A stretch of DNA of 60,413 nucleotides, counting the filler, from Stramenopiles sp. TOSAG23-6 (taxonomy: Eukaryota), in NCBI GenBank assembly GCA_900128565.1. It is 13 parts of 13 records of this genome, joined end to end, with 100 filler letters (N's around TTAATTAATTAA, not from the genome) between each part and the next. Parts side by side here need not be neighbours in the genome. Positions count along the whole stretch, not along the records: positions 1 to 4,578 come from LT637123.1; positions 4,679 to 9,246 come from LT637124.1; positions 9,347 to 13,906 come from LT637125.1; positions 14,007 to 18,566 come from LT637126.1; positions 18,667 to 23,224 come from LT637127.1; positions 23,325 to 27,876 come from LT637128.1; positions 27,977 to 32,527 come from LT637129.1; positions 32,628 to 37,176 come from LT637130.1; 5 more parts are not named here. One strand, given 5' to 3'. The translations under genes were made by a program, and so were the position numbers. The notes under the pieces were generated by a model. The model saw only the letters and a list, made by a program, of their open reading frames with translations, did no database searches and was not told where the DNA came from. This document shows, one piece after another, positions 100-55,186 of this stretch (the stretch's first letter is position 1; each line of letters opens with the position of its first letter).

Positions 100-915
100 A
101 TGCACCAAATGATTCTTCGTATCTTTGAGTATGTTTATAATTAGGGTTGGGGTTTCGATTATTTTTAGACGTTTTAGATATTTTAGTATTATTTTTAGTA
201 TATCGAAATGTTGAACGAGAGTGAGTCCGATTATGAGTTCGTCGCGACCGACTTGAAGAATGCTCTGAAGATTTACTGTCTATTTTAGATTTTGTATTCT
301 TTGGATTAAAAATAAATAAAGGTACTGGGTGGGAAGGACGTTAATATTGTAGAAAAATATGTTATATTTTTGAAAAACATCGTTAGATATAAAATTTGTT
401 TTTATGAAAATGTACGATGAAAAAAAAAATGAAATAAGTGAATACAAATTCAAAAATATTTTTGAAATATTTTTTTCATAGTAAAATTTGTACCTAACAA
501 AAAAAAACAAAAAAAACAAAAAAATGAAATGTAAGTGAATACCGTACAAGTCAAAACAGATACAATCACATCCAACACCAGATCGTTTCATGCGCGCATG
601 TGTTAAATCACTCAAGTCTGTGTCAACACGAAATGTTCCATTTGAAGCTGTGAGTAGTTGAATGGTCATACCACTACTACCTAAATTTCGATCAACATAG
701 GAAACATCAAAAATATTGAGTGTGAGATTTACAGCTTCTAAAATATTACCACATGTATTGTGAAAAAAAACAAGAATTTTACAAAAAAAAAAAAATCGTT
801 AGGTACGAAATGTACTATGAAAAAAGAAAACTATAAAGTAATACATTCATGATGAAAACGTGCATTCACCCGTTGACAGAGAAACACCATTTGATTTAAG
901 CCTGTGGTGAAACGC
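100..915 (-). CDS. DEPDC5: DEPDC5/Iml1 (GATOR1 subunit), internal exons 864-915, 548-752, 100-341
   Basis: Spliced translation GNILEAVNLTLNIFDVSYVDRNL...SGVGCDCICFDLRPSHPVPLF matches the Iml1/DEPDC5 vWA-like motifs; frame is open after intron removal. Confidence 0.8.
342..547 (-). other. Non-canonical intron GT...TA with internal duplication and an inverted family core
   Basis: GAC TT|GTACGG...CAATATTA|A CGT restores CFDLRPSHP; a 2-nt upstream shift would create a TAA stop. Confidence 0.65.
753..863 (-). other. Non-canonical intron GC...AT
   Basis: GAA T|GCACGTTTTCATCATG...CGTACCTAAC...CACAATACAT|GT GGT restores GECGNILEA. Confidence 0.8.
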
Positions 916-1010
916 ATGTATTTTGGAAAAATATTTCAAAACAAAAAATTCATTAGGTACAAAATTTCGTACGAAAAAAAAAAACGAATTTGAAAAAAAA
1001 TAAAACATAC
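916..1010 (-). other. Non-canonical intron GT...AT joining a CysRS exon to a DEPDC5 exon
   Basis: CAT|GTATGT...CAAAATACAT|GCG; phase 0 on both sides but the flanking exons belong to different genes. Confidence 0.7.
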
Positions 1011-2042
1011 ATGGCCTGTATGAACAAATTGAGACACCCAGCAATTAGGTTTACACTGTAAATATGATTCACTTTGAGCTATTTCGTTGCAGTGATGAGG
1101 AAATTGTAAATCAACACCCCCACCATGTATTGTAAAAAATATGCAAAAATTTGATTTTTTTGTTAGGTACAAATTTCGTATGAAAAACAAATAAATTTGA
1201 AATTCATGATGAAAACGTATATGTAAATTAAATGTTTTCCCCAACACTTGATGACTCATAGCACTGCATTCTATATGCCAACCAGGTCTACCACGACCCC
1301 ATTTGGAATCCCAAGTCACACAACTATCCCAATTTGTTTCTTTTTTTTCGGGTATGACTTTCCAAAGGGCAAAATCACGAAAATCTTTTTTTTCTGAAAG
1401 TTCATTTTGATCTGAATGAGAATTTATATTTGGTTGAGGTTGAGTGATAGTTGGGTCATTGGATAATCTACCATAAGCGTTACCAATAGAGGCTGTATCA
1501 AAATAAACACCACTATCGAGAATATATGCGTTTCCATTATCAATAATTGTCTGAATATATTCCTGAATATCTCCAATGTGTTCACTAACACGTGTCATAT
1601 TTGGTGGCAATTCAACACCAAGAGATCGCATGTCATTCAAAAATTCTAATTCATACAGCCGAGATAACTCTCTAGCAGACATACTACGTTCTTTTGCACG
1701 TGCAACAATCTTGTCGTCGACATCAGTAATTCCCATTACAGACACTACAGGCTGTCGGAAATAATCACGAAGAATACGTTGCATTATATCCAGGCACACA
1801 TACGTTCGCGCATGTCCAAGATGTGCGCTATCATACACAGTAGGACCACAATTGTACCATCGCAATATCCCATCATCATCACATTGTAAAGGCTCTAACA
1901 TACCAGTCACAGAATTTTGAATATTAACGGGTAACGTTCTCTGCATTGAAGGTGTAGCTGCTGAAGCAAAAGACCTATGAAAGGTTCGCTTTGTAACTAT
2001 TGAAGGGACAGCTTTGTACACCATGCGCATATGCGAACCCAT
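1011..2042 (-). CDS. Cysteinyl-tRNA synthetase, N-terminal part, probably organellar
   Basis: WYNCGPTVYDSAHLGHAR (HIGH), DFALWK, GRPGWHIECSAM, spliced LHGGGVDLQFPHHCNE; KMSKS region absent; N-terminus resembles a transit peptide. Confidence 0.93.
1125..1220 (-). other. Non-canonical intron AT...AT
   Basis: TTA CAT|ATACGTTTTCATCATG...GTACCTAAC...TACAATACAT|GGT GGG restores the conserved HGGG motif; 96 nt, so the ORF track reads through it. Confidence 0.85.
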
Positions 2043-2281
2043 TAGACAGATTACTCCGAGGAATATCAACAGAATTTATTTTATCAGTACTATACTTGAC
2101 GTAGAATCTGAGAGGTACACTGCGACTGTAGTAGCTACAGTACAGGCCTGTGTAAGTTAAAGTTTTCAAGACCGCGTGTCAGGGGTCAACAGGTTTGTTT
2201 GGTGTGAATTCGAATGGCCAAAATCGGCCAATCATCAGATGAAGAAGAAGAAGAAGAAAGTCTTTTTGACATAAATTGAAT

Positions 2282-3425
2282 ATGGAAAAGACAATGATAG
2301 ACTGGACGAATACAAAGATGGAATACAGGCAATTGGGCAAAACGGGACTTAAAGTCTCCGCTCTTAGTCTAGGTTCGTGGACGACATATGGAGGGACTGA
2401 AGACTACAAAACGTGTTATGATTGCTGTACGAAAGCTCTTCAACTCGGTTGCAATTTTTTCGATTGTGCAGAGATATATGCCAACGGTGAAGCTGAACGA
2501 GTTATGGGTATACGTTTTTTATTCTACAAAACTATGACAATATTTTATGATTGAATTACTTATTTATTAGTATAATACTTTACATATTTGTTTCTAAATT
2601 GTATAGAACCATACAACGTTGGATAAAAGAGGGTCTCTGTCTTCGAAGTGACCTCGTTATTTCTACAAAAATATATTGGGGTGGTCCAATGGCAGGAATA
2701 AAAGGTAACCCGAATGCTACAGGATGCAGCCGAAAGAGAATTATTGAAGGTACAAAAGCCTCTCTTTCTCGCTTAAATTTGGATTATGTGGATCTTATAT
2801 TTTGCCATCGTGAGGACTTCCAAACACCTATTGAGGAGACCGTACGGGCCATGTCATTTATCATTGATAAAGGGTATGCAATGTATTGGGGGACATCAGA
2901 AGTACCTTATTTCTATATGATTTCGATATTGTTGAAAAAATTTAAATATACACTATATATTTATCGCTTTATCATTACTATATTAATACACTCTACACTG
3001 GTCACCTGCAGCAATTTCGAGCGCAATTGAAATAGCGAGAAAGTTAAATTTGCACGAGCCTGTTATGGAACAGCCACAATATAGTCTACTTCATCGCCAT
3101 CATTTTGAAGTGTCTCTTGATCCCATTTTTGCTGATCATCGCGTACGATTTCATCAGTTATTTCAAATTTTTATTTTTTGTAATTTCAAATTGATTTTTT
3201 TTTTTCGTAAAAACAATAACAATTTATTTTTAAATATTTTTTCATAATAAAGTATGGTTCAACCATATGGAGTCCTTTAGCATGTGGCTTACTCACTGGA
3301 AAATATTCGGGTGGTAGTTTTCCTGCTGGTTCTCGTTTAGCACATGCAAAAAATGCATGGTTGAAAAATCAACTTGAAAATGGTGAAGATGGTACCTTAC
3401 CCCTAACCCTAACCAAATATCCAAC

Positions 3426-3458
<33 letters not shown>

Positions 3459-3985
3459 GTTTGAAAATTTATATCTTGGACAAATTTATACCTAACAAAA
3501 ATATCAAATGTAAAACTATTTTTTCAAAATAAATGGGGAGGAAATGGTTTAAATGGGCTTGAAGTGAAAGATCCTCAAGAAGCTCTTGATATGTCGGATA
3601 GACTGGCAACAATTTCAAAAAAACTTAAATGCACACAAGTAAGTTTTCATGATTTTCAATTTTCAATTTCTTTTTTTTCTTTTTTTTGTATGGAAATTTT
3701 GTACCTAACAATTTTTTTTTTCGTAAAAAAAAAAAAAAATACTTCTTCATAATACACGCTCAATTAGCTTTAGCATGGTGTTTAGTAAATCGTGATGTTA
3801 GTAGTGTTATTACTGGTGCAAGTAAAGTGTCTCAAGTAATTGAAAATTTTGAAGCTCTCGATATTGTAAAAAAATTGAATCAAGATATATTACACGAAAT
3901 CGATGTTTTATTGGGAAACAAACCGATCAGACCTAAATGCTGGGGTCGAGGTCGAAAACGCATCGGATATGGTCAAAGGGCGTAA
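2282..3985 (+). CDS. Aldo-keto reductase, Kv-beta (KCNAB)-like, 6 exons
   Basis: YRQLGKTGLKVSALSLGSW, FFDCAEIY, VISTKIYWG, YWGTSEW, EQPQYSLL, AQLALAW; introns at 2510-2604, 2902-2998, 3143-3252, 3392-3534 (or 3540), 3639-3757. Confidence 0.92.
2510..2604 (+). other. Non-canonical intron AT...AT (degenerate family member)
   Basis: GGT|ATACGTTTT...AATTGTAT|AGA restores RVMGRTIQ; the adjacent GT and AG do not give an in-frame product. Confidence 0.65.
2902..2998 (+). other. Non-canonical intron GT...AC
   Basis: GAA|GTACCTT...CTCTACAC|TGG restores conserved WGTSEWS. Confidence 0.8.
3143..3252 (+). other. Family-like intron with canonical GT...AG
   Basis: CGC|GTACGATTTCATCA...CATAATAAAG|TAT restores DHRYGSTIWSP. 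Confidence 0.85.
3639..3757 (+). other. Non-canonical intron GT...AC
   Basis: CAA|GTAAGT...GTACCTAAC...CATAATACAC|GCT restores CTQAQLALAW. Confidence 0.85.
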
Positions 3986-7761: not shown

Positions 7762-8913
7762 ATGTTCAAGAACACATTTCAATCAGGTTTTTTATCAATT
7801 CTCTACTCTATTGGTAGCAAACCACTTCAGATATGGGACAGAAAAGTCAGAAATGGACATATCAAGAGACTTACGGGTAAGTATTTTCTACAAATGTTCG
7901 GAACTGACCATTAGTGTTTATTTTTTTTTGTCCTTTACACTTTTTAGGATTTATAGTTTGATTCCAATGTTTTTTCTTGAGTAAACTGTATCGTAATGAA
8001 AAGCAAAATATGCCATCTTCAATACTTGCCATGTATGTGTGTGCTTGCACGATATATATTGCTGGTGTTGTTCTTTCACGCTAACTTTCCCCATTGGCTC
8101 TTCAAATCTTTCTTTGTATACGAAAACGGAAGACGCCACACAATCTNNNNNNNNNCATACAACATATTGACATATATACACATAACACAGACCCTGATAT
8201 TCAATCAAGTGTATTGGAAATTCTTGGAACTAATGTCAGTACAACGTTTATAAGTTGCCCAGCTGACTCAAAAAAGACCCTAGGTATCAAGTTGCCTTTT
8301 CTTGTAATGATTATCAAAAACATGAAAAAATACTTTACATTCGAAGTACAAGTTTTGGACGATAAAAATGTGCGTCGCAGATTTCGTGCTTCAAACTACC
8401 AATCGACCACTCGTGTTAAACCTTTCATTTGCACCATGCCAATGAGACTTGACGAAGGATGGAATCAAATTCAGTGTATGTTTTATTACAATTTAAAATT
8501 TTAATTTTTTTTTCGTACGAAATTTTGTACCTAACGAATTTTTAAAAATGTTTTAAAATATTTTCCTACAATACATTTAATCTCTCTGATTTTACACGCC
8601 GAGCGTACGGTACTAACTACATTGAAACTCTTCGTGTTCAAATACATGTACGTAACCACAACCCTAATTATCGCTCAAAGAGTCCATCTTGATTTTTTTT
8701 TTTTGTACCAAATTTCGTACCTAACGATTTTACATTTTTTTTTTCTTCACAACACAGGCGAATTGTCGTATCCGTCGAATTTACTTTTCCGATCGACTTT
8801 ATTCAGAGGATGAATTACCACCTGAATTTAAGTTGTTTCTGCCTATTGCCAAAGGTGCTGAGGCACAGCCAGCTGCAGCTACCCAGCAGGTTGCTGTTGA
8901 GAATCCTGCATAA
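7762..8913 (+). CDS. CFAP20: Cilia- and flagella-associated protein 20 (BUG22), 4 exons
   Basis: [26 protein letters not shown]...[18 protein letters not shown]...[18 protein letters not shown]...VQIHANCRIRR. Confidence 0.97.
7877..8190 (+). other. Canonical GT-AG intron without the family core
   Basis: G|GTAAGT...AACACAG|AC restores KRLTDPDIQS. Confidence 0.9.
8476..8576 (+). other. Non-canonical intron GT...AT
   Basis: CAG T|GTATGT...CAATACAT|TT AAT restores conserved QIQFNL. Confidence 0.9.
8648..8757 (+). other. Family intron with canonical GT...AG, fixing the splice register
   Basis: CAT|GTACGT...CGTACCTAAC...CACAACACAG|GCG restores QIHANCR; a 2-nt shift would change the conserved His to Gln. 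Confidence 0.92.
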
Positions 8914-9527: not shown

Positions 9528-10238
9528 GAATATTTGCAAAGCTTTCATCATGGGTAACGCCACTGAAAATATTCTTGATGATGCTGTCCGCCACTGCCAG
9601 TATGCGGTGAATGTAATTGTCCCTGTCAGTGAACGCCTATGTTGTGCTGGTGATAGTGATAGTGCGTTTCCATAATGAATTGTTTACCTACATCTTTTTT
9701 TCGTATGAAACTTTGTATCTAAGGATTTAAAAAAATATATATTTTTCACAATGTATGTGATGGTGAAAATATTAATTTAGAAAATTCTAATTGTGATAAA
9801 ATTGTTCATAGTTCTAGGCAAAATATTGTTGATAAAAGTATATCTAACCAAAATCATCAAGAAAGACATTTACATATGAGAAAGACCTTGTGTGATCTAT
9901 ACCAAACATCAAATAGTCATCATGTTTGTTTTTTTTTTTTTTTCAAATTCGATTTTTTTTTTTATAAAAATTTTGTACCTAACAAATTCTAGTTTTTTTT
10001 TTTGAAATATTTTTCCAAAATACATTCTATGAAAAAGTATAAAACATTGGATTCACTGAATAATGACCCTACCATGAATACACGTAATATTGTACACAAT
10101 ATATCACGAAATACATCAACCAGTAGTGAACTATCACAAATTTCACAGCAACAACCGTCAAAATTTGTGACTCCTGGGCCAGGTTCACAAGAAACTCCAG
10201 CATCTGGATTGTTTCTTTATACTCCAAGTGTACTATAA
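9528..10238 (+). CDS. Hypothetical protein C-terminus, possibly with a USP-like motif; GT...AT introns at 9662-9756 and 9924-10025
   Basis: Continuous frame after removing both introns; FIMGNATENIL...VNVIVP weakly resembles a USP-domain end. Confidence 0.55.
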
Positions 10239-11523: not shown

Positions 11524-12628
11524 TCAATTTTTGTTTTTCTCTGCAGCAATCATTTCTCTAGCTACAATAAAACAACCAACAAGTCCACCCAACTGAATAT
11601 CTTCAGATGTTGCATGTGCCAAATGATTTTCAAGATCTGCTAGTTTTGAAGCAATATACATTTTCACTGGAGGAGGAAATACTAAATCATTAGATCGTTC
11701 AAAGACGCATTTGATGACATCTTGCATTGCAAGACCTTTCTCCCGGCGAATACACGAAATATTGCGATATGCTTTTGAAAAAGGCTCATTTAATAACTGA
11801 GTCATGATTGCATCTACATCTGCTGGGTGTGGTGTACCGGTACAGATGTATTGTGAAAAGTATTTTACATTCAATTTTTTTGTTAGGTACAAACTTTTGT
11901 ACGAAAAAAATATTTTACACTCAATTTTGGAAAACGTACATATACACATTTTCTTGATTTACTTCAGGATAAGCCATGTGACAGGACTGTAAAATATTGA
12001 GCATTTTTCGCATATCACCCTCACAAAGATTTAAAATAGACTCCATTCCATCATCAGTTATATTAACATTTTCAGCGTTAGCAATTTCTTTCAAACGTCC
12101 ACTCATTTGAAATTTCTCAAGAGGAGCAAATCGAAATCTTGTACAACGCGATTGAATAGCTGGAATAATCTTATTTGCATAGTTACAAATTAAACAGAAG
12201 CGTGTATTTTTTACGTACTTTTCAATCACACGTCGAAGAGCAAACTGTGCTGTACGGGTCAGAGCATCTGCCTCATCCAAAATTACCAACTTTACACCTG
12301 AACTAAAAAGTTTACGAGTACCAGCGAAATTCTTAATTTGATTTCGCACTACATTTATACCACGATCATCCGATGCGTTAAGCTCTAAAACCATTGAAGA
12401 AAGATTATTACCATATAGGCGCCGTGCACACGCAAGAATTGTGGACGTTTTACCGGTACCTGGAGGACCGTAAAAGAGCAAATGAGGTAAGGAGTTTGCA
12501 TCTACCAGGCGATTAATTGTCGAAATAATTTCAGTGTGGGCAATCAAATCATCAAGCGTATTAGGGCGATATTTTTCTATCCATGGAAGAGACTCAGTGG
12601 CTGTCATCTTCTTCATTGAAGGGGCCAT
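11524..12628 (-). CDS. RFC5: Replication factor C small subunit (human RFC5/yeast Rfc3 type), 2 exons
   Basis: LPWIEKYRP, YGPPGTGKTS, LELNASDDRG, DEAD, IQSRC. Confidence 0.93.
11846..11939 (-). other. Non-canonical intron GT...AT
   Basis: TAT AT|GTACGT...CACAATACAT|C TGT restores NVYICTGTPHP. Confidence 0.9.
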
Positions 12629-12843: not shown

Positions 12844-13811
12844 ATGCATTCTTGGGAAACTGCAGAATTTCGTTCACTAAAAGCACATGTGACAGCTACC
12901 CAAAAGCTTCATTTGCGCGATCTTTTAAAAGATGATGCTCGTTGTAGCTCTATGCGTACAGAGTTTGATGGCATTACGCTTGACTATGCGAGACAACTCG
13001 TAACTTCAGAAACAATGAATAAACTGGTTAACCTTGCAAATGCTGTGAGTCTTCCTAGCAAGATAAAGTCGATGTTTGAAGGGGCCCATCTTAATACTAC
13101 TGAAGATAGGGCTGTATTACACACTGCACTTCGTGCTCCAGTTAATTCTACATGTATGCTCGATGGAGAAGACATAATTCCAAAAGTTCACGCTGTGCTT
13201 CAACAAATATGTACATTTTCCGAAAAGGTTCGTAATAGTGAATGGTTAGGTGCAACTGGAAAGGCTTTAACTGATGTGCTTTGTATTGGCATTGGTGGAA
13301 GTTATCTTGGTCCTGAGTTTGTTCATGTATGTTTTATTTTTTTTCAATTTCGAATTTATTTATTTTTCGTACGAAATTTTGTACCTAACAAATTTTACAT
13401 TTTTTTTTTCCACAATACATGAAGCATTGCGGACTGATTCTGTGGCTGCTCAAAAAGCAAAAGGTCGACGGCTTCGTTTCCTTGCAAATGTTGACCCCGT
13501 TGATGTTGAGCGCTCTCTTGAAGGCCTTGATCGTGAAAAAACTTTGGTTATAATCGTTTCTAAAACTTTCACGACTGCAGAAACGATGTATGTTTTATTT
13601 TTTTTCAAATTCGTTTTTTTTTTTATAAAAATTTTGTACCTAACAAATTGAAGTTTTTTTTTTTTCAAATATTTTTCCAAAATACATGCTTAACGCAAGA
13701 ACAGTTCGGCATTGGTTGTTAGATGGAGCGAATGAAAAACTATCAACAGACAATGTGATTAAACAACAGTTTATTGCTGTTAGTGCTGCGGTAGACTCTG
13801 CAAAAGAATTT
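12844..13811 (+). CDS. GPI: Glucose-6-phosphate isomerase, 5' part (contig ends in intron 3)
   Basis: [51 protein letters not shown]. Confidence 0.96.
13327..13420 (+). other. Non-canonical intron GT...AT
   Basis: CAT|GTATGT...TTTCGTACGAAATTTTGTACCTAAC...CACAATACAT|GAA; using the nearest downstream AG (+4) causes a frameshift. Confidence 0.92.
13588..13687 (+). other. Non-canonical intron GT...AT
   Basis: ACG AT|GTATGT...CAAAATACAT|G CTT restores TTAETMLNA. Confidence 0.92.
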
Positions 13812-15105: not shown

Positions 15106-16872
15106 ATGTGGCGTGGTGATCGTTTTATTCCAAATCGAAAGACAAACATTGAAACTACTTCGTTCCTCTCAATGTTGAAAGAGAATCACGAACCATATGA
15201 CACGTTCATATTCAAGAAACAAGTTGCGTCTATTTTGTTTAACAGTTGTAATACAAGTCGCCGTGTTTTTTCTTTTACACCAAGCATAGCTAATTCACCA
15301 CGAAATACACAAAATACTTTAGAAAATATTAGGTCCTTGTACTGTAGAGGTAAACAGACGACAAAGACTCCAAAAGGTTCGCGTAATATTTCACTCGTAA
15401 AAGTTCTCGATGCGCCAGACTTATTAGACGATTATTACCTGAATCTTCTTGATTGGTCAGTCGATAATATTCTAGCAGTTGCTTTACAATCATTTCTTTT
15501 TTTGTGTATGTTTTATCTGAATTTCTAATTTAATTTTTTTTTTTGGTTTTCGTACGAAATTTCGTACCTAACGATTTTTTTTAGATTTTTTTTGAAATAT
15601 TTCTTCACAATTCGTGGAATTCTCACACAAACGAAACGGAAGAACTTTTAGAATTAGACGGTAATGACTATATTTCATCTGTGAAATTTTCAAGTGCAGA
15701 TGGAAATATTCTTGCTATAGGCACAAGTAATTATCAAATACAATTATGGGATATCAAAAAAAAAATAAGAATTCGAATTCTCACGGGGCATCTTGGACGC
15801 ATGTAAATTTTATTTTTTTTTTAAACAAAAAAATCGAGTTTTTTTTTTTTTCCAAAAAAATATTTTTTTCATATGAAATTTTGTACCTAAAAAAAAAAAA
15901 AAAAAATATTTTCAAAAAATACATATGTGGTTTAGCATGGNNNNNNNNNNNNNNNNNNNNNNNNNNNNNNNNNNNNNNNNNNNNNNNNNNNNNNNNNNNN
16001 NNNNNNNNNNNNNNNNNNNNNNNNNNNNNNNNNNNNNNNNNNNNNNNNNNNNNNNNNNNNNNNNNNNNNNNTTTTTTTTTTTTTTTTTTCCAAAAAAATA
16101 TTTTTTTCATACGAAATTTTGTACCTAAAAAAAAAAAAAAAAATATTTTCAAAAAATACATATGTGGTTTAGCATGGTCCTATGATGGAATCTCACTAGC
16201 ATCTGGAGGAAATGATAATTTGTGTTGTATCTGGGATTCACGATATTCAATGAAATGTTCTACCAATCAAAATGAACATAAAGTGCGTTGTATTCTTCGC
16301 GCGCACAAAGCTGCTGTCAAGGCCATCGCATGGTGTCCACACCAAAGTCATCTACTCGCATCAGGTATTTTTTTTTCATAGTAAATTTCGTACCTAACGA
16401 TTTTTTTATTTTTTTTCAATTTTTTATCTATATTTTTTTTTTCATAGTAAATTTCGTACCTAACGATTTTTTTGTGATTTCCTATTTTTCACAATACTTG
16501 TGGAGGCTGTAATGATAAAACAATCAAATTTTGGAATACAAGTATTTTGTCTAATGAAGCAACATGTATCAAAAGTGTTTTTACAGGTAGTCAAGTGTGT
16601 GCTCTTCTTTGGAATCAACACAGAAAAGAAATTTTATCTTCACATGTAAATTCTATTTTTTTTTAATTTTTTTTTTAAATTTTTTTTTTCATACGAAATT
16701 TCGTACCTAACGATTTTTTTTTTTTTTTACAATTTAAATTCGTATTTTTTTACAATCCATGGATATTCTGAAAATCAAATCTGTTTATGGCGGTATCCAA
16801 ATATGAAGAAAATTATAGAGTTAACTGGACATACAAAACGTGTTTTACATTTATGTACTTCTCCTGATGGAG
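15106..16872 (+). CDS. CDC20: Cdc20/Fizzy family APC/C activator (gapped; 3' end lost)
   Basis: C-box [66 protein letters not shown]. Confidence 0.9.
15506..15615 (+). other. Non-canonical intron GT...GT
   Basis: TTG T|GTATGT...CACAATTCGT|GG AAT restores LFLWNS. Confidence 0.85.
15803..15924 (+). other. Family intron GT...AT, possibly collapsed from two introns
   Basis: CGC AT|GTAAAT...AAATACAT|A TGT; its 3' half recurs after the N gap. Confidence 0.6.
16365..16499 (+). other. Non-canonical intron GT...TT with duplicated core
   Basis: TCA G|GTATTT...CACAATACTT|GT GGA GGC restores conserved LASGGG. Confidence 0.85.
16646..16760 (+). other. Non-canonical intron GT...AT
   Basis: CAT|GTAAAT...TACAATCCAT|GGA restores SSHGYS. 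Confidence 0.88.
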
Positions 16873-18818: not shown

Positions 18819-20257
18819 ATTCATTTTTTTCGTATCAAAATCTATAGTTTTTCCATGTCCAAATTGTATAGTACCTCCTTTATATAAAAATGGATATTGA
18901 TCAATAGATCGAATACCAAATTTTTGTTTTTCTTGAGGAGTAGCTCCTTGAACTAAATAATAAAATATATGAAAACATCTATCACCTTGACATAAATGAG
19001 ATAATCTTGATTTTTCTAATAAATAATGTTGTACTGTAGCTCCCATGTTTTTTGTGAAAAAAAAAATTTTGAAAATTTGTTAGGTACAAAATTTCATACG
19101 AAAAAACCAAAAAAAAAAAAATTGTAAAAAAAAATTGAAATTGAAAAAAAAAAAAAATTTGAAAATTTGTTAGGTACAAAATTTTTATAAAAAACCAAAA
19201 AAAAAAAAAATTGTAAAAAAAAATTGAAATTGAAAAAAAAAAAAAGGTACTTCAGTTGACCCGTTGATGAATTGAAATAAATTTTCATAAATTTTCCAAA
19301 ACGACTTGAATTATCATTTAGATGTGATTTAGCATTCCCAAATGCTTCAAGAATTGTACTAACATTTTGTATTAATGCTGATATATCGAAATTCTTTGTT
19401 TCAAAATTTTTTGTTTCAAAATTTTTTGTTTCAATTTTTTTTGTATTTTTCGTGTTTGAGAAAAATGTTAAATATTTAATAAATAAACCACAAGTAACTG
19501 TCTTACCTGCTCCTGATTCACCGGATACTATACAACTTTGATTTTGTATATTTTGTATATTATTTTCAAATTGATTGTTATATGCACGTGCGGCAATCAC
19601 ACTAACACTTGGTCGGTGTTTTTTTTGTTTTTTTTGAATGTTTTGAATTTGCATTAATGAAGAATTGGTATGAAATTTCGTACCAAATGAATTTGGAATG
19701 TTCATATATGGATTGATGGATAATAAAACATCACCAACAAATGTATAAATATACTTTTGTTGAATATATCTACGACGAAGAATTTTTAGTAGAATAGCTT
19801 CACTAAAGGAAACAATAGTACAAATATCATCGTTTTTTTGAGTTTCCTCATTTTCTTCTTCATTTTTGTCCCCAATTGAAATTTGTCTTTGTTTGTGTGC
19901 TTCATCCCAAGGATACACATAATTACAATCCAATTCTACGATACTCCCATCACGTATCTGAATAGAATGTTTTTCAGTACCCCATTCTTTTATTTCACCC
20001 ACGTCATACAACTTTGTAACCATTGTTTGTGTCACATTATGAAGGTGACTTCCGGGGCATTGTCCACGTTTATTATAGTCACTTCTAAACTCATCCAGTG
20101 TTTGATTTAAAGATTGTAAATGTGAACGACGAAATGTAGCATCTGTTTCCATTTTGTGGAGAAATTGTGTACGTAATACATCATTTTGAACAACATCAAT
20201 ACAACGTTCAACGTTTCCCTTGAAGTTATCACCTACACGATAGTAACATTTAGCCAT
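18819..20257 (-). CDS. Myosin heavy chain, 5' part
   Basis: IYTFVGDVLLSINPY, VSGESGAGKT, LEAFGNAK, NDNSSRFGKF, YLLEKSR, FHIFY. Confidence 0.93.
19045..19250 (-). other. Non-canonical intron GT...AT made of a tandem-duplicated unit
   Basis: CTG AA|GTACCT...CACAAAAAACAT|G GGA restores GQLKGATVQHYLLEKSR; two GTACCTAAC cores. Confidence 0.8.
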
Positions 20258-22573: not shown

Positions 22574-23129
22574 TTATATATTTTTTTCATTATATGATCG
22601 CATTGTCATTTCAATTTCTAAATTATCTTCTTTTAACTCTCTTTTTGAGTCACATTGTACAGTTTCATACAATAAAGAACGCTTGACTGAATTCCCTAAC
22701 CCTAATGGACGTTTGACATTTCGTGATTCTGGAGAATATGGGAATGTCATCGACACATCATCATTTTCATGGGTACCTGGTAACAAATCACCAGGTGTTG
22801 ATGACGTCACTTTTGTATATTCTGTTGTACTTCGAGACACTGATCGAAATCGACCATTTGAATCATCATTTAGACTATTACGAGGACTTGTTGTATATAT
22901 TGTAAAGAAATATGTTTGTTTTTTATGTATAACAATTTGTTAGGTATAAAAAAAAAATTTCAAAAAAAAAATTTCAAAAAAAAAATTTCAAAAAAATAAT
23001 TCAATTTTGTAAACATACATGACAGCCTGTAGTCACTACATTTGTCATTGATGGTGATTTAATCATTATAAATAGACCAACAAACATTGTAAAACTACCA
23101 AGTGAAAACATCATAATCATTTTTGTTGT
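22574..23129 (-). CDS. Hypothetical membrane protein C-terminus; GT...AT intron at 22895-23018
   Basis: CAT|GTATGT...CAATATAT|ACA joins a hydrophobic exon in frame to ORF 22574-22840. Confidence 0.55.
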
Positions 23130-46631: not shown

Positions 46632-49140
46632 TTATGGACTTTATTGTCCTGGGGACCCACATGGATATACAAATGCTGTCACAGGATATCCACAATTATG
46701 TAAAGGGGGTTACTATTGCCCATCTCCAGCGAAGCAAATCATTTGTCCAAAAGGATATGCTTGTCGTCCTGGATCATCTGAACCTTCTCTATGTGTTTTT
46801 TTTCATGAGTGTCCCAAGGGATCTTCTCGACCAAATGGTAGTTTTATTGGTGTAGTTTCTGTCGTTATTTTGTTTTTATTTGTCCATTCTTTTAAATATA
46901 TATATCTTTGCATTCGAAATGGAAATAGAATTGCTAGAGAAACTACACCAAGTTCGAAATATTGGCGACGTGCAATGTCTTATGTACCATCTTGGCGTAA
47001 AATCAAAAATATTAATGGTGAAGATAGACCTTTATTAAATGTATTGAATCATGATATGCAAAACGCCTTTGATGATGAAAATTCAGAAAATGTACCAATA
47101 ATACCATTAATGACTGCTGAACCTTTGTTACGTTCTGAAAATAGTGAAAAAGTTTCGATTATTTTTCATCGTATTACAGTAAAGTTGGAGCCTAATTGTA
47201 CATCTTTAGTAAAACATGACAAAAGAATAGAAAAAATAATTATCAAAGATGTAACTGGAACTCTTAGAAGTTCACGACTCACTGCAATTATGGGTCAATC
47301 GGGATGTGGTAAAACGACTTTATTGAATGCCCTTTGTAACCGAATAATTCGTCCAGCGAAATTGTATGGAGATGTCTATGTAAATGGTACTCTAATGCCT
47401 AGTGGGATATCAAAAGATATAACAGGTTATGTTCCACAAGATGATACAATGCATACTGAACTAACAATACGTCAGTGTCTTTGGTTTTACTTAGAATTGA
47501 AAGGAAATCCGCAAAAAACATTTCGTGAAAAAAAAATGCATTTGAATAATATACTTACAGTGTTAGGTCTATATAATATTCGACATTCTATTATTGGAGA
47601 TACAGAGACACGTGGTATTAGTGGTGGGCAAAGGAAGAGAGTAAATGTAGGTATTGAACTTCTAGCTGACCCAACAGTTCTCATGCTGGATGAACCTACA
47701 TCGGGGTTGGATAGTACTACATCTGCAGATCTCATCTCAACTCTTTCAAATTTGGCAAAGACAGGGCTTACTATAGGGATGGTCATTCATCAACCACGAC
47801 CAGAAATTTTAGACATGACTGATGTGCGTTTTCAAAATTGAATGTATAATTTTGTTTTTTGTAATTTGTATCTAACAAAACAAATGAATGTAAAGTATTT
47901 TTCTAATATGCATGATTTGATATTACTCCAACGTGGACGATTGGTGTATTGTGGTCTTTGTGACAATGCCAATGCTTACTTTGAATCTTTAGGTTATGTT
48001 TTACCTTCTAGAACAAGTCCTGCAGATTTTTATCTTGATTTACTAGTAAGTACAGCAACATATGAAAATGAGGAAAGATGTCTCTATAATCAATGGAATC
48101 AGAAAACATTTAGAGAACAGTTGAATTTGGATACAAAAGAGGATACTATAAATCATTCAGATGATGTTGTATCACTCATTTCTTCAATGTTTTCCTCTAC
48201 AGATTCACCTCCGAAATCAAGAAAAAAACCTTCATTTACAGCACAATTTATTACCATAATTAAGAGGGGTCTTGTTCAACATGGTTGGCCCACGAGTTCT
48301 TTCCTTGGAGATGCATGTACATTTTTTTTTCATTTTTGAATGTATTAATATTTTTTTTATAGAGAATTTCGCATTCAAAACAAATGAAATTTGAAATATT
48401 TTTTCACAAATTATTATTGCTTGTATTTTCTGGTGCATTACTTGGTGCTGTATTTTCCTCAGGTAGTACCAATGAGCTTACAATGCGGTTTCTTTTATCT
48501 TCACTTGCAATTGGTTTAACAGGCACTCAATCTGCTATTACAATTTTCGGTGGAAAAGAAAAAGTTATTTTTTTACGCGAATCTGCATCTGGTATTAAAG
48601 TAACAGCGTATTTCTGGGGCAAGTTAGTATCGTATCTTGTTCGTATCCTTACGGCACCTGCTTTTTTTCTGTTGCTTTATTATCCTCTGTCAGCTCCAAG
48701 ATTCTCTTTTTTTGTATATTATCAAATATTGTTATGGACAAATTTAACAGCGATGTCAATAGGAGTTTTAATATCCCTCTTATTTTCACGAAATTCGGCG
48801 TTTTTTTGCGGGAGTCATTGTTTCCTTAATATCTATATTATTTTCTGGTATGCAACCACCCGTCAAGGAATTGGAAACCACCATTTTTGGTCAGATTGGA
48901 ATGTCACTTTCATACGCTCGTTGGACAACAGAAGCTCAATTTTTTATGGAGCTCAGTGCATATCCTCCATCAGCATATAAATTAAATGTTGTGAGTGGCA
49001 TTATAAATTTCTTAGGCTATGGTCAAAACCATACACTTAATTTAGAAACTGTTTATGAACTGTGTATTGTTCAATTACTATATATTACTGTGGCTTGTTT
49101 GTTAATATCATATATAATTTTACTACGAAATGCAAGATAA
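46632..49140 (+). CDS. ABCG half transporter with Cys-rich extracellular N-region; GT...AT introns at 47824-47913 and 48317-48414; homopolymer frameshift at about 48805
   Basis: GQSGCGKTT, ISGGQRKRV, LDEPTSGLDS, IHQPR; spliced DMTDDLILL; FLRESASG. Confidence 0.9.
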
Positions 49141-49250
49141 AAAATAAAGTATAAAATAGTCCAGCATATATAAAATAAAATCTTTTTTCATAATATTTGA
49201 CCTGATTTTATATTTTCACCATAAAATAAAAACTTTTTCATACTAATATT

Positions 49251-50162: not shown

Positions 50163-51059
50163 TTAGGTTACAACAGCCATCACTACTGTAATATCATCCA
50201 TTTTGCCACCTTCAAATTCATAACCGCATTGTCTTGCATTTCTACTAAAAGGACTTGGTTTGGAGGTTGACTTTGCATTAACTAGTGCTAACTTTGCAAT
50301 AATTTCAGCTAGTTTATCTATGAGTAATCCATGTATAAGTCCGTTTTTAATGGTCTCTTTCTCTGATTTATTTACTGGAATACCACAGGATCCTCCAACT
50401 GAAGTAACATCATCTAACAAAGATGTTATTTCGTTGTTCCAGACATTATCAAATAGCCCATCAGTGGCGGCTAAAATAAGGTCACCTGGCTTTACTAACA
50501 ATTTATATGAGTCCGCGTCTTCCACCGTATCACTAGATCCAGTGCCTAATTGATTAGGAAAATTAAACCCTTTAAGTTGATTTGACTCACATGATTTCAT
50601 TACGATACCCCAAGGTTTGCTTTGATACGTATCTTCTTTATAATCTTTTTCCTCAGAGCTATTTTTTCTTGTCATGCAATCTCTTACAAAATCCATAAAA
50701 ACCTGTTTTTTTTTTAACTTTTTTGAACCATCTATATATCCACGCCGTAGAACCATAAATCCAGAATCCCCCAGAACAACTGCGTCTAGAGCTTTCTTTT
50801 CGGCATCATGTATTGTGAAAATATTTGTAATTTGAAATTCGTAAGGTACAAAAGGAATTTTTAGGTACAAATTTTTTATGAAAAAAAATTAATGATGAAA
50901 ACGTACATACGTTAAAATACAAGCTGTAGAAGAACCTTTGGCTTGTACCTTTTTCGCAGCTTTGGAAAGAATTTGATTTGGAGAGAATAATGTTTCCGAC
51001 ATAGCGAATGATTTTGCATGATCTAAGAGTTCTCTTGAATAAGCACCTGAATCTACCCC
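50163..51059 (-). CDS. PTC7: PTC7-type PP2C phosphatase, 3' part; GT...AT intron at 50808-50906
   Basis: GVDSGAYSRELL, GSSTAC, LGDSGF, ATDGLFDN, GGKMDDITV. Confidence 0.88.
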
Positions 51060-52471: not shown

Positions 52472-52802
52472 TGTATAAATATAACGTGGGCAATGTTACT
52501 TTAATCTTTGTCTGTATAGTTACAACATTGATTGATATCCAAGAGGATTTTTATAGGCTTTTAAATTTTATCTCATGTAAAAAACAAGACTATTCAAAAT
52601 TTCAAATAATATTGACACGACACACACACACACACACACAGGAGCGCTTTTGTATTTAAATACGTACTATTTAGGGTTAGGGTTCAGAATGAAACTGTCT
52701 CCCCAAGCAAAGCCATGCTATCGATCGTCGTCGTCGGATCGAAAAAAGTGGAACACAGACGTTCAAAATAATTTCCTTGACAAAGTACATCTTGAATTAA
52801 CC

Positions 52803-53537
52803 ATGTCGTTTTATGATGTTTTGGGTGTATCTAAAACAGCCACTACGCGTGACATCAAAAAGGCATTTCGCAAATTAGCTCTCAAGGAGCACCCTGACAA
52901 AGGCGGAGATCCTGAACGTTTTAAGCAAATTGCTCAGGCATATGAGACACTTGTTGATGACGCAAAAAGAAGGGATTATGATCAAGTTGGGAGTACAAGC
53001 AATATGGGTGGTGGCTTCCAATCGAGGGGTTTCCATACTCCATTTTCATTCCAAAGAGCAGAAGATGTCTTTGCCGCTTTTTTCGGTAATGATGATTTTA
53101 TGAGAGGTAGTAGTTTTTCGGGTTTTGGTGGTGATGACTTCTTTGGAGGCACAAATAGAAGCACAAATAGAAGCACTAATAGAAACACCAATGATAATAG
53201 AAGTATGATGTTTCCCGGTTTTGGTGGTGGTTTTTTTGGTAGAAGTGCTTTTGATATGTCTCCTTTTGGTGGTGATCCTTTCGGTGGTGATTCGTTTGGG
53301 CGTGGTTTTCATAGTAGTGGGATGAGTAGTTTTGCATCGTCCAGTAGTAGTTCTAATAGAGGTGGTTATTCAAAATCTGTTTCTACCCGCTCCCATATTG
53401 GCCCAGACGGACGTCGTATCACAACAACTACCACTACTGTTCGACATCCCGATGGTAGGGAGGAAACAGATACAACTACAACTACAAATGGACCATCTTT
53501 GGAAAATACTAGTGGTAGACGTGGCTTGCTGCAGTGA
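52803..53537 (+). CDS. DnaJ protein, DNAJB6/B2-like
   Basis: J domain with HPDK, G/F-rich region, S/T-rich SKSVST...TTTT C-terminus. Confidence 0.9.
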
Positions 53538-53811
53538 TTTTATTCTTTTTGGAGGTTTATTTTTCAATTGGTATAAAGTATATTTAAATTTTTTTATTAA
53601 TTGTATGATTGAATCGACACAGAAACTTGGATTTTGATCTCTTGAAACAGTGAGGCATTGTGAGATTCCGTACCATTTTTTTGTATCTAATTTTCAATTC
53701 TAAATATCGAAATCGAAATTTTTGACTTTTTTGAGAATTTTTTTGCGACCTTCCCATAAAAGTCCAAAAAAAACAACATTACTTTGTAGAAGTACGACAT
53801 CACAATCAGCG

Positions 53812-55186
53812 ATGCCGAAATCATCATCATCGAAAGCACAAAAGGGAGCTAGATCAAGCTCGAGAAAACCTCGGAAAGGATCAAGAAAAACCCAGAAAGG
53901 TGATAAAAAGAAAGTACGAAAGAGAACAAGATCAAGAACAAGATCAAGGACAAGATCAAGAACAAGATCAAGAAAAAAACCACGAAAAAAACAGAAAGAT
54001 GAAAAAGAGGTGTACCCTGGTGTCACTATTCACAACCTGCCTCTCTTTATAGTATCTGTATTTTGTATGGTTTGTATTAAATTCCTGATTATGTCTCGTT
54101 GGTACAGCCCTCAGGATACAGAACTCCTTCTGAATGTTTGTTTATTTCCCATGGTACTTGCTGTTTATTCTTTGTCACCAATCGAGCAACCAGAGGCATA
54201 CCACAATTTTGCTGACCAAAGAGTATTATGTGGCTGCCTTCCAAATTACATGGATGTATTGTCGAATATTCCCTTTGCAATTTTTGGTATACTGGGAGTA
54301 GTTGCTATAGCAGATGACACACGGCTTACTATTGATTCTGAAATGGAGCGCAAGGCTTGGATTTCTTTCTTCGTTGGGATTACAGGCATTTCCATAGGCT
54401 CAGCATACTACCACTGGTATCGTACTTCACCTACTCTTGTATGGGATAGATTGCCAATGACTGTCGCATTTCTTTCAGCCCTCAATATTCAGTACATGTA
54501 CGTTTTTATCAACTCCAACTTGATTATTTTTCATACAAAATTCCGTACCTAACATATATTTTTTCTAAAAATATTTTTTCACGATATATGGAACGAATTT
54601 CGATTACATACGGCCAATATCTATATGCATTTATTTTTTTTGGATTATTCAGTGTATTCTCATGGCAATTTACGAAGGATCTGCGACTGTATGTCATTGC
54701 GCAGTTTTACCCTACTATAATCATTCCTATAATGATGTACGTTTTCATCATCAATTTCAAATTTATTATTTTTCGTACCAAATTTCGTACCTAATAATTT
54801 TGAAAAAAATTTAAATATTTTTCACAATATATGTATTCACTTGAACCAAAATATTCGAGACCGGATCTACTCCTACTTGCCTTCTCCTTTAATATAGCTT
54901 GCAAAATATCTGAATCATTAGATAAACAAATTTTTACGTTGACCAATGGAATCATAAGTGGACATACATTGAAGCATATGTACATTTTCAAAGTTGAATT
55001 TCGAATTTATTTTTTTTGTACCACATTTTGTACCTAACAATTTTTTTTTTTTTTACGAAAAAAAAAAAAAATATTTTTTCACAATATATTTTAGCTTCGT
55101 TGACTCCTCTAACAGCACTGTATTATCTTCAGGAAAGAGAACTACAAATAGCCGATAGCATGGGTCATGAAAGATTAGTAATGTAG
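53812..55186 (+). CDS. Alkaline-ceramidase-like (CREST) membrane protein; GT...AT introns at 54498-54589, 54737-54832, 54980-55089
   Basis: YHNFADQR, VLSNIPF, GSAYYH, WDRLPMT, SGHTLKH; all three junctions are AT|GTAC...ATATAT and restore the frame. Confidence 0.85.

What the first reader, a model, noticed from the sequence alone, without database searches (positions are those of the whole stretch)
753..55089. Dominant intron class lacks the AG acceptor: GT...AT introns with a conserved branch-point core
Seen: conserved genes (GPI, RFC5, CFAP20, Cdc20, CysRS, Sec63, ABCG, PTC7, myosin) are interrupted by mostly 90-120 nt inserts with consensus GTAYGTTTT...TTTCGTACGAAATTTTGTACCTAAC...(about 30-45 nt)...AAATATTTTTYCACAATAC-NN. 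Of 30 placed at both ends by hand, NN is AT in 22, AC in 2, GT, TT and TA once each, AG in 2, and 1 is ambiguous. The register is fixed by CFAP20 8648-8757 (AG; conserved His), Cdc20 16365-16499 (TT; SGGG) and DEPDC5 342-547 (shift gives a stop). Established: U2 introns almost always end in YAG, and U12 introns use RTATCCTT donors, which are absent here. Non-canonical introns are known from Fritillaria, Amoebophrya and euglenids. Inference: a major-type spliceosome that sets the 3' site by the branch point and a CAATAC motif rather than by AG. I do not recognise this GT-AT pattern as described.
Basis: partly seen in the sequence, partly recalled or inferred. Interest (0 to 1): 0.96.

Follow-up and report, generated by a model that had tools for sequence, protein, structure and literature searches.

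The report
Repeated-element introns that end in AT
Most introns in these marine-protist genes are copies of one ~100-base repeated element that is removed from the RNA at a normal GT start but at an AT end instead of the near-universal AG, and this has misled at least one public gene model.

Summary
I placed 24 introns of one family at both ends. With the cut before GTAYGT, 22 start GT, 1 GC and 1 AT. They end AT in 20 and AC, AG, GT and TT in 1 each. Junctions are exact against solved homologues for GPI, CysRS and Cdc20, and against transcript-derived RFC5 relatives. Seawater RNA contigs join across CFAP20 intron 8476-8576 and keep G8474. That excludes the AT..AC register there.

First, the introns are a repeat family: median pairwise identity is 0.70, and up to 0.94 between unrelated genes. 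This looks like an introner-type mobile element, not only splicing signals. Second, 18 of 24 are preceded by exonic AT (P = 4e-14). Their register is therefore ambiguous, and the AT looks like a 2-bp target duplication.

Best reading: the elements carry their own GTAYGT donor and TACCTAAC branch-like box, and are cut 2 nt past their terminal ATAC, without an AG. The splicing machinery could not be tested because no genome is held.

This is a new variant of a known kind (Fritillaria, Amoebophrya, diplonemids). My literature searches found no description of it.

The parts
753..863 (-). family intron, GC..AT in the GT register (AT..AC also possible)
   Evidence: joins open frames of 60 and 80 codons; registers
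916..1010 (-). family intron, GT..AT (ambiguous register)
   Evidence: 0.94 identical to intron 29626-29718 in another gene
1125..1220 (-). family intron in CysRS, donor ATACGT: AT..AT or AT..AC; no register gives a GT start or an AG end
   Evidence: junction contiguous in 3tqo_A 227|228, 8qhp_A 236|237, 1li5_A 224|225; registers
3392..3534 (+). divergent family intron in the aldo-keto reductase gene, GT..AT; contains CCCTAA repeats
   Evidence: boundaries by motif only, not run through the frame test
3639..3757 (+). family intron, GT..AC
   Evidence: joins open frames of 58 and 75 codons; downstream exon matches Aldo_ket_red
7877..8190 (+). non-family canonical GT..AG intron of CFAP20 (314 nt)
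   Evidence: RNA contigs of X1 and X4 join 7875 to 8190, GT..AG with cut +1; sequence
8476..8576 (+). family intron of CFAP20, GT..AT (or TG..CA); the AT..AC-type register is excluded
   Evidence: table 8: X1 record 6 = 8309-8474 + 72 letters + 8758-8942; X4 record 29 ends at 8475; side 72 at the next joint. The tool dropped this joint row at a flagged repeat, so the excision is inferred from the letter counts
8648..8757 (+). family intron of CFAP20 with an AG end (ACACAG), GT..AG
   Evidence: RNA joint 8647 to 8758 in X1 and X4
9924..10025 (+). family intron, GT..AT (ambiguous)
   Evidence: 0.94 identical to GPI intron 13588-13687
11846..11939 (-). family intron of RFC5, GT..AT (ambiguous)
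   Evidence: spliced product aligns without a gap to 6 of 6 relatives other than P0002; public model P0002 is mis-spliced here
13327..13420 (+). family intron of GPI, GT..AT (ambiguous)
   Evidence: 7e77_A 165|166 and 3ujh_A 170|171
13588..13687 (+). family intron of GPI, GT..AT (ambiguous)
   Evidence: frame continuity only; the next exon found no solved chain
15506..15615 (+). family intron of Cdc20, GT..GT, preceded by exonic GT
15803..15924 (+). family intron of Cdc20, GT..AT (ambiguous)
   Evidence: the downstream exon runs into an assembly gap
16365..16499 (+). family intron of Cdc20 with a duplicated core, GT..TT (TA..TG and AT..GT also possible)
   Evidence: one residue between the exons in 5g04_R (372/375) and 4aez_A (276/279)
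16646..16760 (+). family intron of Cdc20, GT..AT (ambiguous)
   Evidence: junction SSH|GYS read from the sequence, corrected coordinates not re-run through the frame test
19045..19250 (-). family intron of a myosin gene with a tandemly duplicated core, GT..AT
   Evidence: upstream exon matches Myosin_head
22895..23018 (-). family intron, GT..AT (ambiguous)
   Evidence: coordinates corrected after and not re-tested for frame
29061..29156 (+). family intron in a DnaJ-domain gene, GT..AT (ambiguous)
   Evidence: open frames of 80 and 80 codons; DnaJ
29626..29718 (+). family intron in the same gene, GT..AT (ambiguous)
47824..47913 (+). family intron in an ABC transporter gene, GT..AT (3' ATGCAT)
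   Evidence: ABC_tran; corrected 3' end not re-tested for frame
50808..50906 (-). family intron, GT..AT (ambiguous)
   Evidence: open frames of 80 and 80 codons
54498..54589 (+). family intron, GT..AT (3' ATATAT)
54737..54832 (+). family intron, GT..AT (3' ATATAT)
54980..55089 (+). family intron, GT..AT (3' ATATAT)
2902..2998 (+). non-family intron in the aldo-keto reductase gene, GT..AC (TSE|WSP)
   Evidence: read from the sequence and ORF frames; not checked against homologues
3143..3252 (+). degenerate family-like intron, probably GT..AG (ATAAAG)
   Evidence: read from the sequence and ORF frames; an in-frame alternative 3' site 3 nt upstream is not excluded

Best explanation
The window is a chain of ~4.5 kb contigs from an uncultured marine stramenopile. 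Its genes are peppered with copies of one ~95-nt element, about 35 full or partial copies in 60 kb. The element behaves as an intron.

Each copy brings its own yeast-like donor GTAYGT(TTT), a palindromic box TTTCGTACGAAA, a branch-site-like box TTTTGTACCTAAC, a T-rich tract and a terminal ..CAAAATAC. It sits in an exonic AT|G site so that AT flanks both ends: AT-[GTAYG...ATAC]-AT-G. This is what a 2-bp target duplication of a small terminal-inverted-repeat element would leave.

To restore the reading frame the RNA must lose the element plus one AT. The cell does this by cutting before GT and 2 nt after ATAC, so the intron ends ..ACAT and not ..YAG.

I infer that the major spliceosome does this with a relaxed 3' rule. 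A at -2 is kept in 22 of 24. The last base is mostly U but can be C or G. The site is probably positioned by the ATAC context, which is complementary to the AT|GTAT donor region.

Shown: exact excision, non-AG ends, the repeat-family nature and the AT flank. Inferred: mobility, the target duplication, use of the major spliceosome, branching at CCTAAC and any role of the end helix.
For: Exact excision:
- Frame continuity in 20 of the 23 candidates as entered. Three needed a corrected end and were not re-run.
- Contiguous homologue coordinates at 4 junctions.
- RNA contigs of two runs join across 8648-8757. By letter count they also join across 8476-8576 and keep G8474.

Non-AG ends:
- 23 of 24 family introns do not end in AG in the GT register.
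- 1125-1220 has no GT start and no AG end in any register.
- Two unspliced contigs from independent runs (X2 record 13, X3 record 19) cover 8571-8576. The tool lists no other letter there, so the AT is not an assembly error.

Repeat family:
- Median pairwise identity is 0.70. Best pairs reach 0.94 between unrelated genes, and there are two donor subfamilies.
- The cores attract hundreds of RNA-run contigs, with summed depth of about 1280-2460 in three of the four runs (17.5 in X1), against about 11-14 for the contigs covering the CFAP20 exons.

Target-duplication-like flank:
- Exonic AT in 18 of 24 against 9.6% background, P = 4e-14.
- G after the intron in 17 of 24, P = 9e-8.
- The 3 placed non-family introns have GG, AA and GC instead.

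Complementary ends: the five central pairs are formed in 21-22 of 24 introns. A terminal helix appears in the MFE and centroid of 5 of 8 folds.

Not U12-like: RTATCCTT is found 8 times against 4.1 expected and never at a family intron. The CTAAC box lies 21-53 nt from the 3' end in 23 of 24; in ABCG the script's last CTAA match, at 7 nt, is not the main box.
Against: - No direct proof of mobility: no empty site, no insertion polymorphism and no copy clearly outside a transcript. The inverted termini are short (GTAT/ATAC plus a T/A run).
- The flanking repeat fails in 6 of 24 introns. Only 1 of the 7 cases that are not AT/AT is an exact direct repeat, whereas 3 of 7 are complementary.
- There is no covariation between the two ends. 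The observed 128 pairs compare with a permutation mean of 128.6, and 3418 of 5000 permutations were at least as good.
- Fold z-scores are weak (-2.66 to +0.80), and 3 of 8 folds show no end helix.
- RNA support for a non-AG end rests on one intron. It is read from piece coordinates, because the tool dropped that joint row at a flagged repeat. The contigs differ from the window by about 2%, so they come from a close relative or strain.
- No snRNA or splicing factor could be inspected: no genome is held and the window has 0 Rfam matches.
- Two metagenome scans found no further copies.
Confidence: 0.62

Rival explanations
1. The introns are AT..AC introns. The true cut lies 2 nt upstream at both ends (ATGTAYG...ATAC). 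They are spliced like known AT-AC introns, by a minor-type or a major-type spliceosome.
For: 18 of 24 introns have exonic AT, so the mRNA is the same in this register. CysRS 1125-1220 starts with AT in either register and reads AT..AC at -2. An A-first/C-last pair is an established compatible combination (recalled knowledge). Rare GT-AT and AT-AN ends are documented for U12-type introns (PMC1557818, passages read).
Against: - Only 11 of 24 introns permit AT..AC.
- At 8476-8576 this register would give CAATTT, but the RNA contigs keep G8474.
- At 16365-16499 it would replace the first G of what I recall as a conserved GGG motif (recall).
- No RTATCCTT donor is at any family intron.
- The CCTAAC box is 21-53 nt from the 3' end in 23 of 24, not the 10-20 nt recalled for U12 introns.
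Confidence: 0.08
2. The excision is not spliceosomal. As proposed for euglenid and hemistasiid-diplonemid nonconventional introns, a helix between the two intron ends brings the exons together, and another machinery cuts with a 2-nt stagger and ligates.
For: AT|GTAT and ATAC-AT are complementary in most copies. A terminal helix appears in 5 of 8 folds. The 3' end lacks AG. Precedents: PMC12621601 (abstract read) and the review PMC11282704 (passages read).
Against: - GT is kept at the 5' end in 22 of 24, within a yeast-like GTAYGT, together with a UACUAAC-like box and a T-rich tract. These are unneeded in such a model.
- Family members with an ordinary AG end exist and are spliced (8648-8757).
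- No covariation supports the helix, and the fold z-scores are weak.
Confidence: 0.12
3. These are ordinary vertically inherited introns whose long conserved motifs are unusually extended splicing signals. No mobile element is involved.
For: The conserved blocks include plausible donor, branch and acceptor signals. Almost all copies lie in the sense orientation inside genes. There is no proof of transposition.
Against: - Identity of up to 0.94 extends over the whole length, including spacers, in unrelated genes.
- Discrete subfamilies differ in non-signal parts.
- There are tandem and nested copies: 9347-9530, 16365-16499, 19045-19250, and an antisense core at 480-498 inside another intron.
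- The AT flank is specific to the family.
Confidence: 0.12
4. The pattern is an artefact: amplification chimeras or assembly errors in a single-cell assembly, or the AG is created by RNA editing.
For: The assembly is fragmentary, with many gaps and one duplicated contig.
Against: The same ends recur in 24 independent introns. Independent environmental RNA-run contigs reproduce both the unspliced sequence, with AT, and the spliced form. Exons rejoin exactly against homologues.
Confidence: 0.02

Closest known systems
Non-canonical MITE-derived introns of the tunicate Fritillaria borealis (AG-AC, AG-AT; review PMC11282704, passages read; 'AG-A(N)' in PMC7789003)
   Same: It is a dominant, lineage-specific intron class with transposon hallmarks. 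A short exonic repeat forms part of the 3' splice site. A is kept at -2 while the last base is free. Excision is reported to be by an adapted major spliceosome.
   Different: Here the 5' end stays canonical (GT in 22 of 24, within GTAYGT) and only the 3' end deviates. The flank is AT, not TAC. The host is a stramenopile protist. The family carries a strong UACUAAC-like box.
Introner elements of Micromonas pusilla and Aureococcus anophagefferens (review PMC11282704; PMC7789003)
   Same: These are short, multi-copy, sequence-similar introns in unrelated genes. They have short inverted termini and a short target duplication. One splice site is carried by the element and the other is linked to the duplication.
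   Different: Those families are described as using canonical splice motifs. Here the duplication supplies AT, so the 3' site is not AG. Mobility is not shown here.
Non-canonical introners of Amoebophrya (PMC7789003, passages read)
   Same: More than half of the introns are non-canonical. There are repeated families with inverted repeats joining the intron ends and 3-5 nt direct repeats across the boundaries. The host is a marine protist. Standard gene predictors fail.
   Different: Amoebophrya shows no dominant dinucleotide pair, has 8-20 nt inverted repeats and apparently lacks U1. Here one pair (GT..AT) dominates, the donor is canonical and the complementary ends are only about 6 nt.
Nonconventional introns of euglenids and hemistasiid diplonemids (PMC11282704; PMC12621601 abstract)
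   Same: They have non-AG ends, and the intron ends can base-pair and bring the exons together.
   Different: Those lack conserved GT, a polypyrimidine tract and a branch box. The present family has all three.
Rare GT-AT introns of animals (U2-type DGCR2; U12-type GT-AT, 7 cases; PMC1557818, passages read)
   Same: They have the same terminal dinucleotides, which shows that both spliceosomes can occasionally use AT.
   Different: Those are isolated exceptions, under 0.01% of introns. Here GT..AT is the majority class, and U12 donors are absent from the family.

Membership tests
U2-type (major) spliceosomal intron | 5' GT (or GC) within a donor consensus | tested here: met
   GT in 22 of 24, GC in 1, AT in 1; consensus GTAYGT
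U2-type (major) spliceosomal intron | 3' end YAG | tested here: not met
   AG in 1 of 24 family introns; AT 20, AC 1, GT 1, TT 1
U2-type (major) spliceosomal intron | branch site and pyrimidine tract upstream of the 3' end, with a lariat formed there | tested here: inconclusive
   The CTAAC box lies 21-53 nt from the 3' end in 23 of 24, followed by a T-rich tract. No lariat joint was seen.
U2-type (major) spliceosomal intron | removal by U1/U2/U4/U5/U6 snRNPs | not testable with these tools
   no genome held; 0 Rfam matches in the window
U12-type (minor) intron | donor RTATCCTT | tested here: not met
   0 of 24 family introns; 8 matches in the window against 4.1 expected, none at a family intron (the motif is recalled)
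U12-type (minor) intron | branch box TCCTTAAC about 10-20 nt from the 3' end (recalled) | tested here: not met
   The box is ACCTAAC and lies mostly 32-50 nt from the 3' end.
U12-type (minor) intron | AT-AC or GT-AG termini | tested here: not met
   AT..AC is possible in 11 of 24 and GT..AG in 1 of 24. RNA excludes the AT..AC register at 8476-8576.
Introner / MITE-derived intron family | many sequence-similar introns in unrelated genes | tested here: met
   24 complete copies; median identity 0.70, best pairs 0.94; core depth in RNA runs
Introner / MITE-derived intron family | target site duplication at the boundaries | tested here: inconclusive
   AT flanks both ends in 17 of 24 and GT both ends in 1. 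The same pattern is also explained by end complementarity.
Introner / MITE-derived intron family | terminal inverted repeats | tested here: inconclusive
   Only GTAT/ATAC plus a T/A run; with the flank it makes 6 complementary positions.
Introner / MITE-derived intron family | evidence of mobility (empty sites, polymorphism, autonomous partner) | tested here: inconclusive
   No empty site is available. The one transposase found (Harbinger, 33130-36237) has unrelated ends and a TAA duplication.
Euglenid/diplonemid nonconventional intron | variable borders without GT, and no pyrimidine tract | tested here: not met
   GT in 22 of 24 and a T-rich tract is present
Euglenid/diplonemid nonconventional intron | stable helix joining the intron ends | tested here: inconclusive
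   helix in 5 of 8 folds with z from -2.66 to +0.80; no covariation

The most novel reading that the evidence does not exclude
This lineage's spliceosome has given up the terminal G of the 3' splice site. The last intron base is normally U. U can pair with either G or A at intron position +1, and both occur (GTAYGT in 22 introns, ATACGT in 1). The 3' site would be picked by a short helix between the intron's terminal ATAC-AU and the 5' exon/donor AU|GUAU, not by scanning for AG. A mobile element exploiting this rule would then have populated most genes. If so, this is an independent, protist counterpart of the Fritillaria case and a natural system for studying how the second catalytic step chooses its site.
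Probability: 0.3. Interest if true: 0.9.

Novelty: new variant of a known kind. Interest (0 to 1): 0.78.

Why it matters
First, it would add a fourth or fifth independent lineage in which a burst of element-derived introns goes with a changed splice-site rule. Here the change is unusually clean: the donor and the branch-like box stay intact and only the terminal AG is lost. That makes 3' site choice directly testable.

Second, it has a practical cost. The public gene model for RFC5 (P0002) forces GT-AG mini-introns through the element and yields a wrong peptide. Proteomes predicted for this lineage with standard tools are therefore probably corrupted at most introns. This would affect the phylogenomic and metatranscriptomic reference sets that use them.

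Third, the conserved core is so abundant in seawater RNA contigs that it could serve as a marker for these organisms.

Tried and rejected
- Whole genome: not held, so there is no snRNA or splicing-factor inventory.
- Rfam on the window: 0 matches.
- Metagenome scans. The exact 22-nt core gave 0 hits. This shows only that the JGI/ENA contig set as scanned does not supply copies. It is not evidence of absence.
- Earlier findings of this scan: nothing by place, words or sequence.
- Covariation between the two intron ends: none.
- The GPI exon after 13687 gave no solved-structure hit.
- The PTC7 label was not confirmed: that ORF has no Pfam hit at E 0.001.
- The exons around 753-1010 do not show a clear KMSKS motif. 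The gene assignment of those two introns (CysRS, or the next gene) is open and only frame continuity supports them.
- Intron 2510-2604/2606 of the aldo-keto reductase gene could not be resolved between AT..AT and TA..AG.
- I looked for lariat-type back-joints. The one backward joint (8725 to 8551, X3) looks like another family copy, not a lariat.
- A link between the family and the Harbinger transposon was considered and dropped, because its ends and target duplication differ.

Full report
**What the window is.** The 60,413 bases are about 13 contigs of roughly 4.55 kb. They are joined by N runs and a TTAATTAATTAA linker, and GC is about 33%. One contig is present twice (32628-37176 = 37277-41825).

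The long RFC5 exon is 100% identical to a 228-aa database protein (P0001). Over the parts that are correctly modelled it is identical to entry eukprot:GSMAST32.ASY1.ANO1.2171.1 (P0002). The next relatives are oomycetes, Incisomonas and other stramenopiles at about 70%. I read this as an uncultured marine stramenopile. The 'MAST-3' meaning of the label is my recollection. No whole genome is held.

**The observation.** TGTACCTAAC (up to 1 mismatch) occurs 49 times against 2.9 expected. Aligning on this box shows one recurrent unit:

exon..AT | GTAYGTTTT .. T-rich .. TTTCGTACGAAATTTTGTACCTAAC .. T/A-rich .. GAAATATTTTTCCAAAATAC AT | G..exon

I placed 24 units at both ends. Of the 23 candidates, 20 joined two open frames as entered. 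Three needed a corrected end and were not re-run, and 3392-3534 was added later without a frame test.

Gene identities were checked by Pfam or solved structures:
- Confirmed: PGI, RFC/AAA, CFA20, aldo-keto reductase, myosin, ABC transporter, DnaJ; CysRS; Cdc20/Fizzy.
- Not confirmed: the 'PTC7' ORF gave no Pfam hit.

Junctions are exact where homologues allow a test:
- GPI 13327-13420: 7e77_A 165|166 and 3ujh_A 170|171.
- CysRS 1125-1220: 227|228, 236|237 and 224|225 in three chains.
- Cdc20 16365-16499: one split codon between the exons.
- RFC5 11846-11939: no gap against 6 of 6 relatives other than P0002.

In the GT register the ends are GT 22, GC 1, AT 1 at the 5' side. At the 3' side they are AT 20 and AC, AG, GT, TT 1 each.

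**The register problem.** In 18 of 24 introns the two exonic bases before GT are also AT (background 9.6%, P = 4e-14). The base after the intron is G in 17 of 24 (P = 9e-8). The same mRNA therefore results from GT..AT, TG..CA or AT..AC cuts. GT..AT is possible in 18 introns, TG..CA in 13 and AT..AC in only 11.

Three introns break the tie:
1. CFAP20 8476-8576 is preceded by GT. In seawater RNA contigs, X1 record 6 (423 nt) lies on 8309-8474, then has 72 letters, then lies on 8758-8942. The next joint reports 72 letters on its left side, that is 8576-8647. X4 record 29 runs to 8475, and X4 record 30 has 103 = 31 + 72 letters before 8758. So 101 nt are removed and G8474 stays in the mRNA. An AT..AC-type register would give A there. 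The tool did not list this joint itself, because it dropped rows at a flagged repeat (8484-8514). This is my reading of its piece table.
2. CFAP20 8648-8757 is listed as a GT..AG joint in X1 and X4.
3. Cdc20 16365-16499 (AG|GT..TT|GT) keeps one codon between the exons only in the GT register or its +1/+2 equivalents. That the codon must be Gly (a GGG motif) is recalled.

CysRS 1125-1220 is the odd one. Its donor is ATACGT, and no register gives a GT start or an AG end.

**Not an artefact.** Unspliced contigs in two other runs (X2 record 13, 8516-8725; X3 record 19, 8550-8722) cover the ATACAT end. The tool lists no differing letter there. A canonical 314-nt GT..AG intron (7877-8190) in the same gene is joined by the same contigs, so the organism also splices ordinary introns.

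A MAFFT alignment of the 24 introns gives a median pairwise identity of 0.70. Identity reaches 0.94 between introns of unrelated genes (916-1010 against 29626-29718; 9924-10025 against 13588-13687). The similarity runs through the spacers, not only the signals.

Two donor subfamilies are visible: GTATGTTTTATTTTTTTTCAAATTCG.. and GTACGTTTTCATCATGAATTTCAAATTTAT... There are tandem or internally duplicated copies (9347-9530, 16365-16499, 19045-19250) and an antisense core inside another intron (480-498).

In the RNA runs the conserved cores attract hundreds of contigs. Their summed depth is about 1280-2460 in three of four runs (17.5 in X1), against about 11-14 for the contigs on the CFAP20 exons. 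This fits thousands of copies in these or related organisms.

The three non-family introns I could place (7877-8190, 2902-2998, 3143-3252) are preceded by GG, AA and GC. The exonic AT is therefore a property of the family. It is what a 2-bp target duplication of an element GTAYG...ATAC would leave. Removing the element plus one AT necessarily puts one splice site outside a GT-AG frame.

**Alternative meaning of the AT.** AT|GTAT is the reverse complement of ATAC-AT. The five central pairs are possible in 21-22 of 24 introns. A terminal helix joining the two splice sites appears in the MFE and centroid of 5 of 8 folded introns, and is absent in 3 of 8 (z = -2.05, +0.80, -1.09, -1.43, -2.66 for the five).

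Among the 7 introns whose flank and end are not both AT, 3 are complementary at both positions and 1 is an exact direct repeat. A permutation test finds no covariation (128 pairs observed, 128.6 expected). The data cannot separate a relic of inverted termini and target duplication from a functional helix.

**Mechanism.** The canonical yeast-like donor, the UACUAAC-like box, the T-rich tract and the coexistence of AG-ending family members argue for spliceosomal removal.

U12-type features are absent. No RTATCCTT donor is at any family intron, and the box lies 21-53 nt from the 3' end in 23 of 24.

A is kept at -2 in 22 of 24 and C at -3 in most, so the 3' site reads CA-N. This is the usual YAG with its last base freed.

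Four introns carry an AG about 10 nt after the box that is not used. The rule is therefore not 'first AG'.

All statements about which snRNPs act, where the branch forms and how the site is measured are inference.

**Comparison and novelty.** Element-derived, non-canonical majority introns are known from:
- Fritillaria (AG-AC and AG-AT, with an exonic TAC repeat);
- Amoebophrya (inverted and direct repeats, no dominant pair);
- euglenids and hemistasiid diplonemids (end pairing).

Classical introners keep canonical motifs. GT-AT is documented only as a rare exception in animals.

I found no description of this class:
- 'MAST-3' + introns + non-canonical gave 0 papers.
- Marine stramenopiles + MAST + splice site + intron gave 1 unrelated paper.
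- A paper on single-cell assemblies of such stramenopiles has 2 occurrences of 'intron' and none of 'splice' or 'non-canonical' (passages read).
- The 2022 introner survey has no occurrence of 'stramenopile' or 'MAST' in its main text.
- Supplements were closed.

The public model P0002 reads ..ENVYIVKYFFRTKVSDVD.. where the six other aligned relatives and exact excision give ..ENVYICTGTPHPADVD... By my reading of the sequence, the predictor forced two GT-AG mini-introns through the element. So the annotation did not recognise the class.

**Verdict.** This is a new variant of a known kind: a GT..AT (CA-N) introner-like family dominating the genes of a marine stramenopile. The main weaknesses are the small sample (one 60-kb window), RNA support for a non-AG end at a single intron, and no access to the splicing machinery.

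Noticed in passing
window 33130-36237 (and the duplicate contig, about 37779-40886): An apparently intact PIF/Harbinger DNA transposon. It has 28-nt inverted ends (89% complementary) flanked by TAA on both sides. It holds a 508-aa ORF on the minus strand matching Plant_tran (E 1e-36) and DDE_Tnp_4, and a second 359-aa ORF without a Pfam hit. A fragment of the intron-family core lies between the two ORFs (34387-34412). Its ends and 3-bp duplication differ from the intron family.
   Followed up: partly
P0002 against window 11524-12634 (-): The public gene model of RFC5 is mis-spliced at the family intron (IVKYFFRTKVS instead of ICTGTPHPA). It also lacks 20 residues (RCTRFRFAPLEKFQMSGRLK) inside an uninterrupted exon, which suggests a second forced intron.
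   Followed up: partly
window 32628-37176 and 37277-41825: Two contigs of identical length carry the same ORFs in the same order. This is a duplicated entry in the assembly or a recent duplication.
   Followed up: no
window 3392-3420: Telomere-like CCCTAA repeats (GTACCTTACCCCTAACCCTAACC) sit at the 5' end of an intron in the aldo-keto reductase gene.
   Followed up: no
window 5400-6700: This stretch has markedly higher GC (0.44 in the 2-kb bin) and long overlapping ORFs on both strands. The one ORF tested (6005-6691) has no Pfam hit. RNA contigs cover parts of it. Its nature is unknown.
   Followed up: no
window 9347-9530: Two tandem family copies lie upstream of an ATG (9551). They end in ..CTGTAGCACAG, so this is possibly a 5'-UTR intron with an AG end. 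The junction between the copies reads CAATAC|GTTTTC.
   Followed up: no
window 2510-2606: The first intron of the aldo-keto reductase gene starts ATACGTTTT, like the CysRS intron at 1125-1220. It can be read as AT..AT (keeping an Arg) or TA..AG. This is unresolved.
   Followed up: partly
window 20566-22128: A 521-aa uninterrupted ORF has repeated Myb/HTH-like segments and a match to the bacterial GcrA family (E 2e-15). This is unusual for a eukaryotic gene.
   Followed up: no
loose ends at 8473: Several RNA contigs match the CFAP20 exon up to 8473 and continue with a relative's next exon (CAA TTC AAC..). Close relatives with CAA at this codon are therefore present in the same seawater samples. 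This fits an original AT at the insertion site.
   Followed up: no
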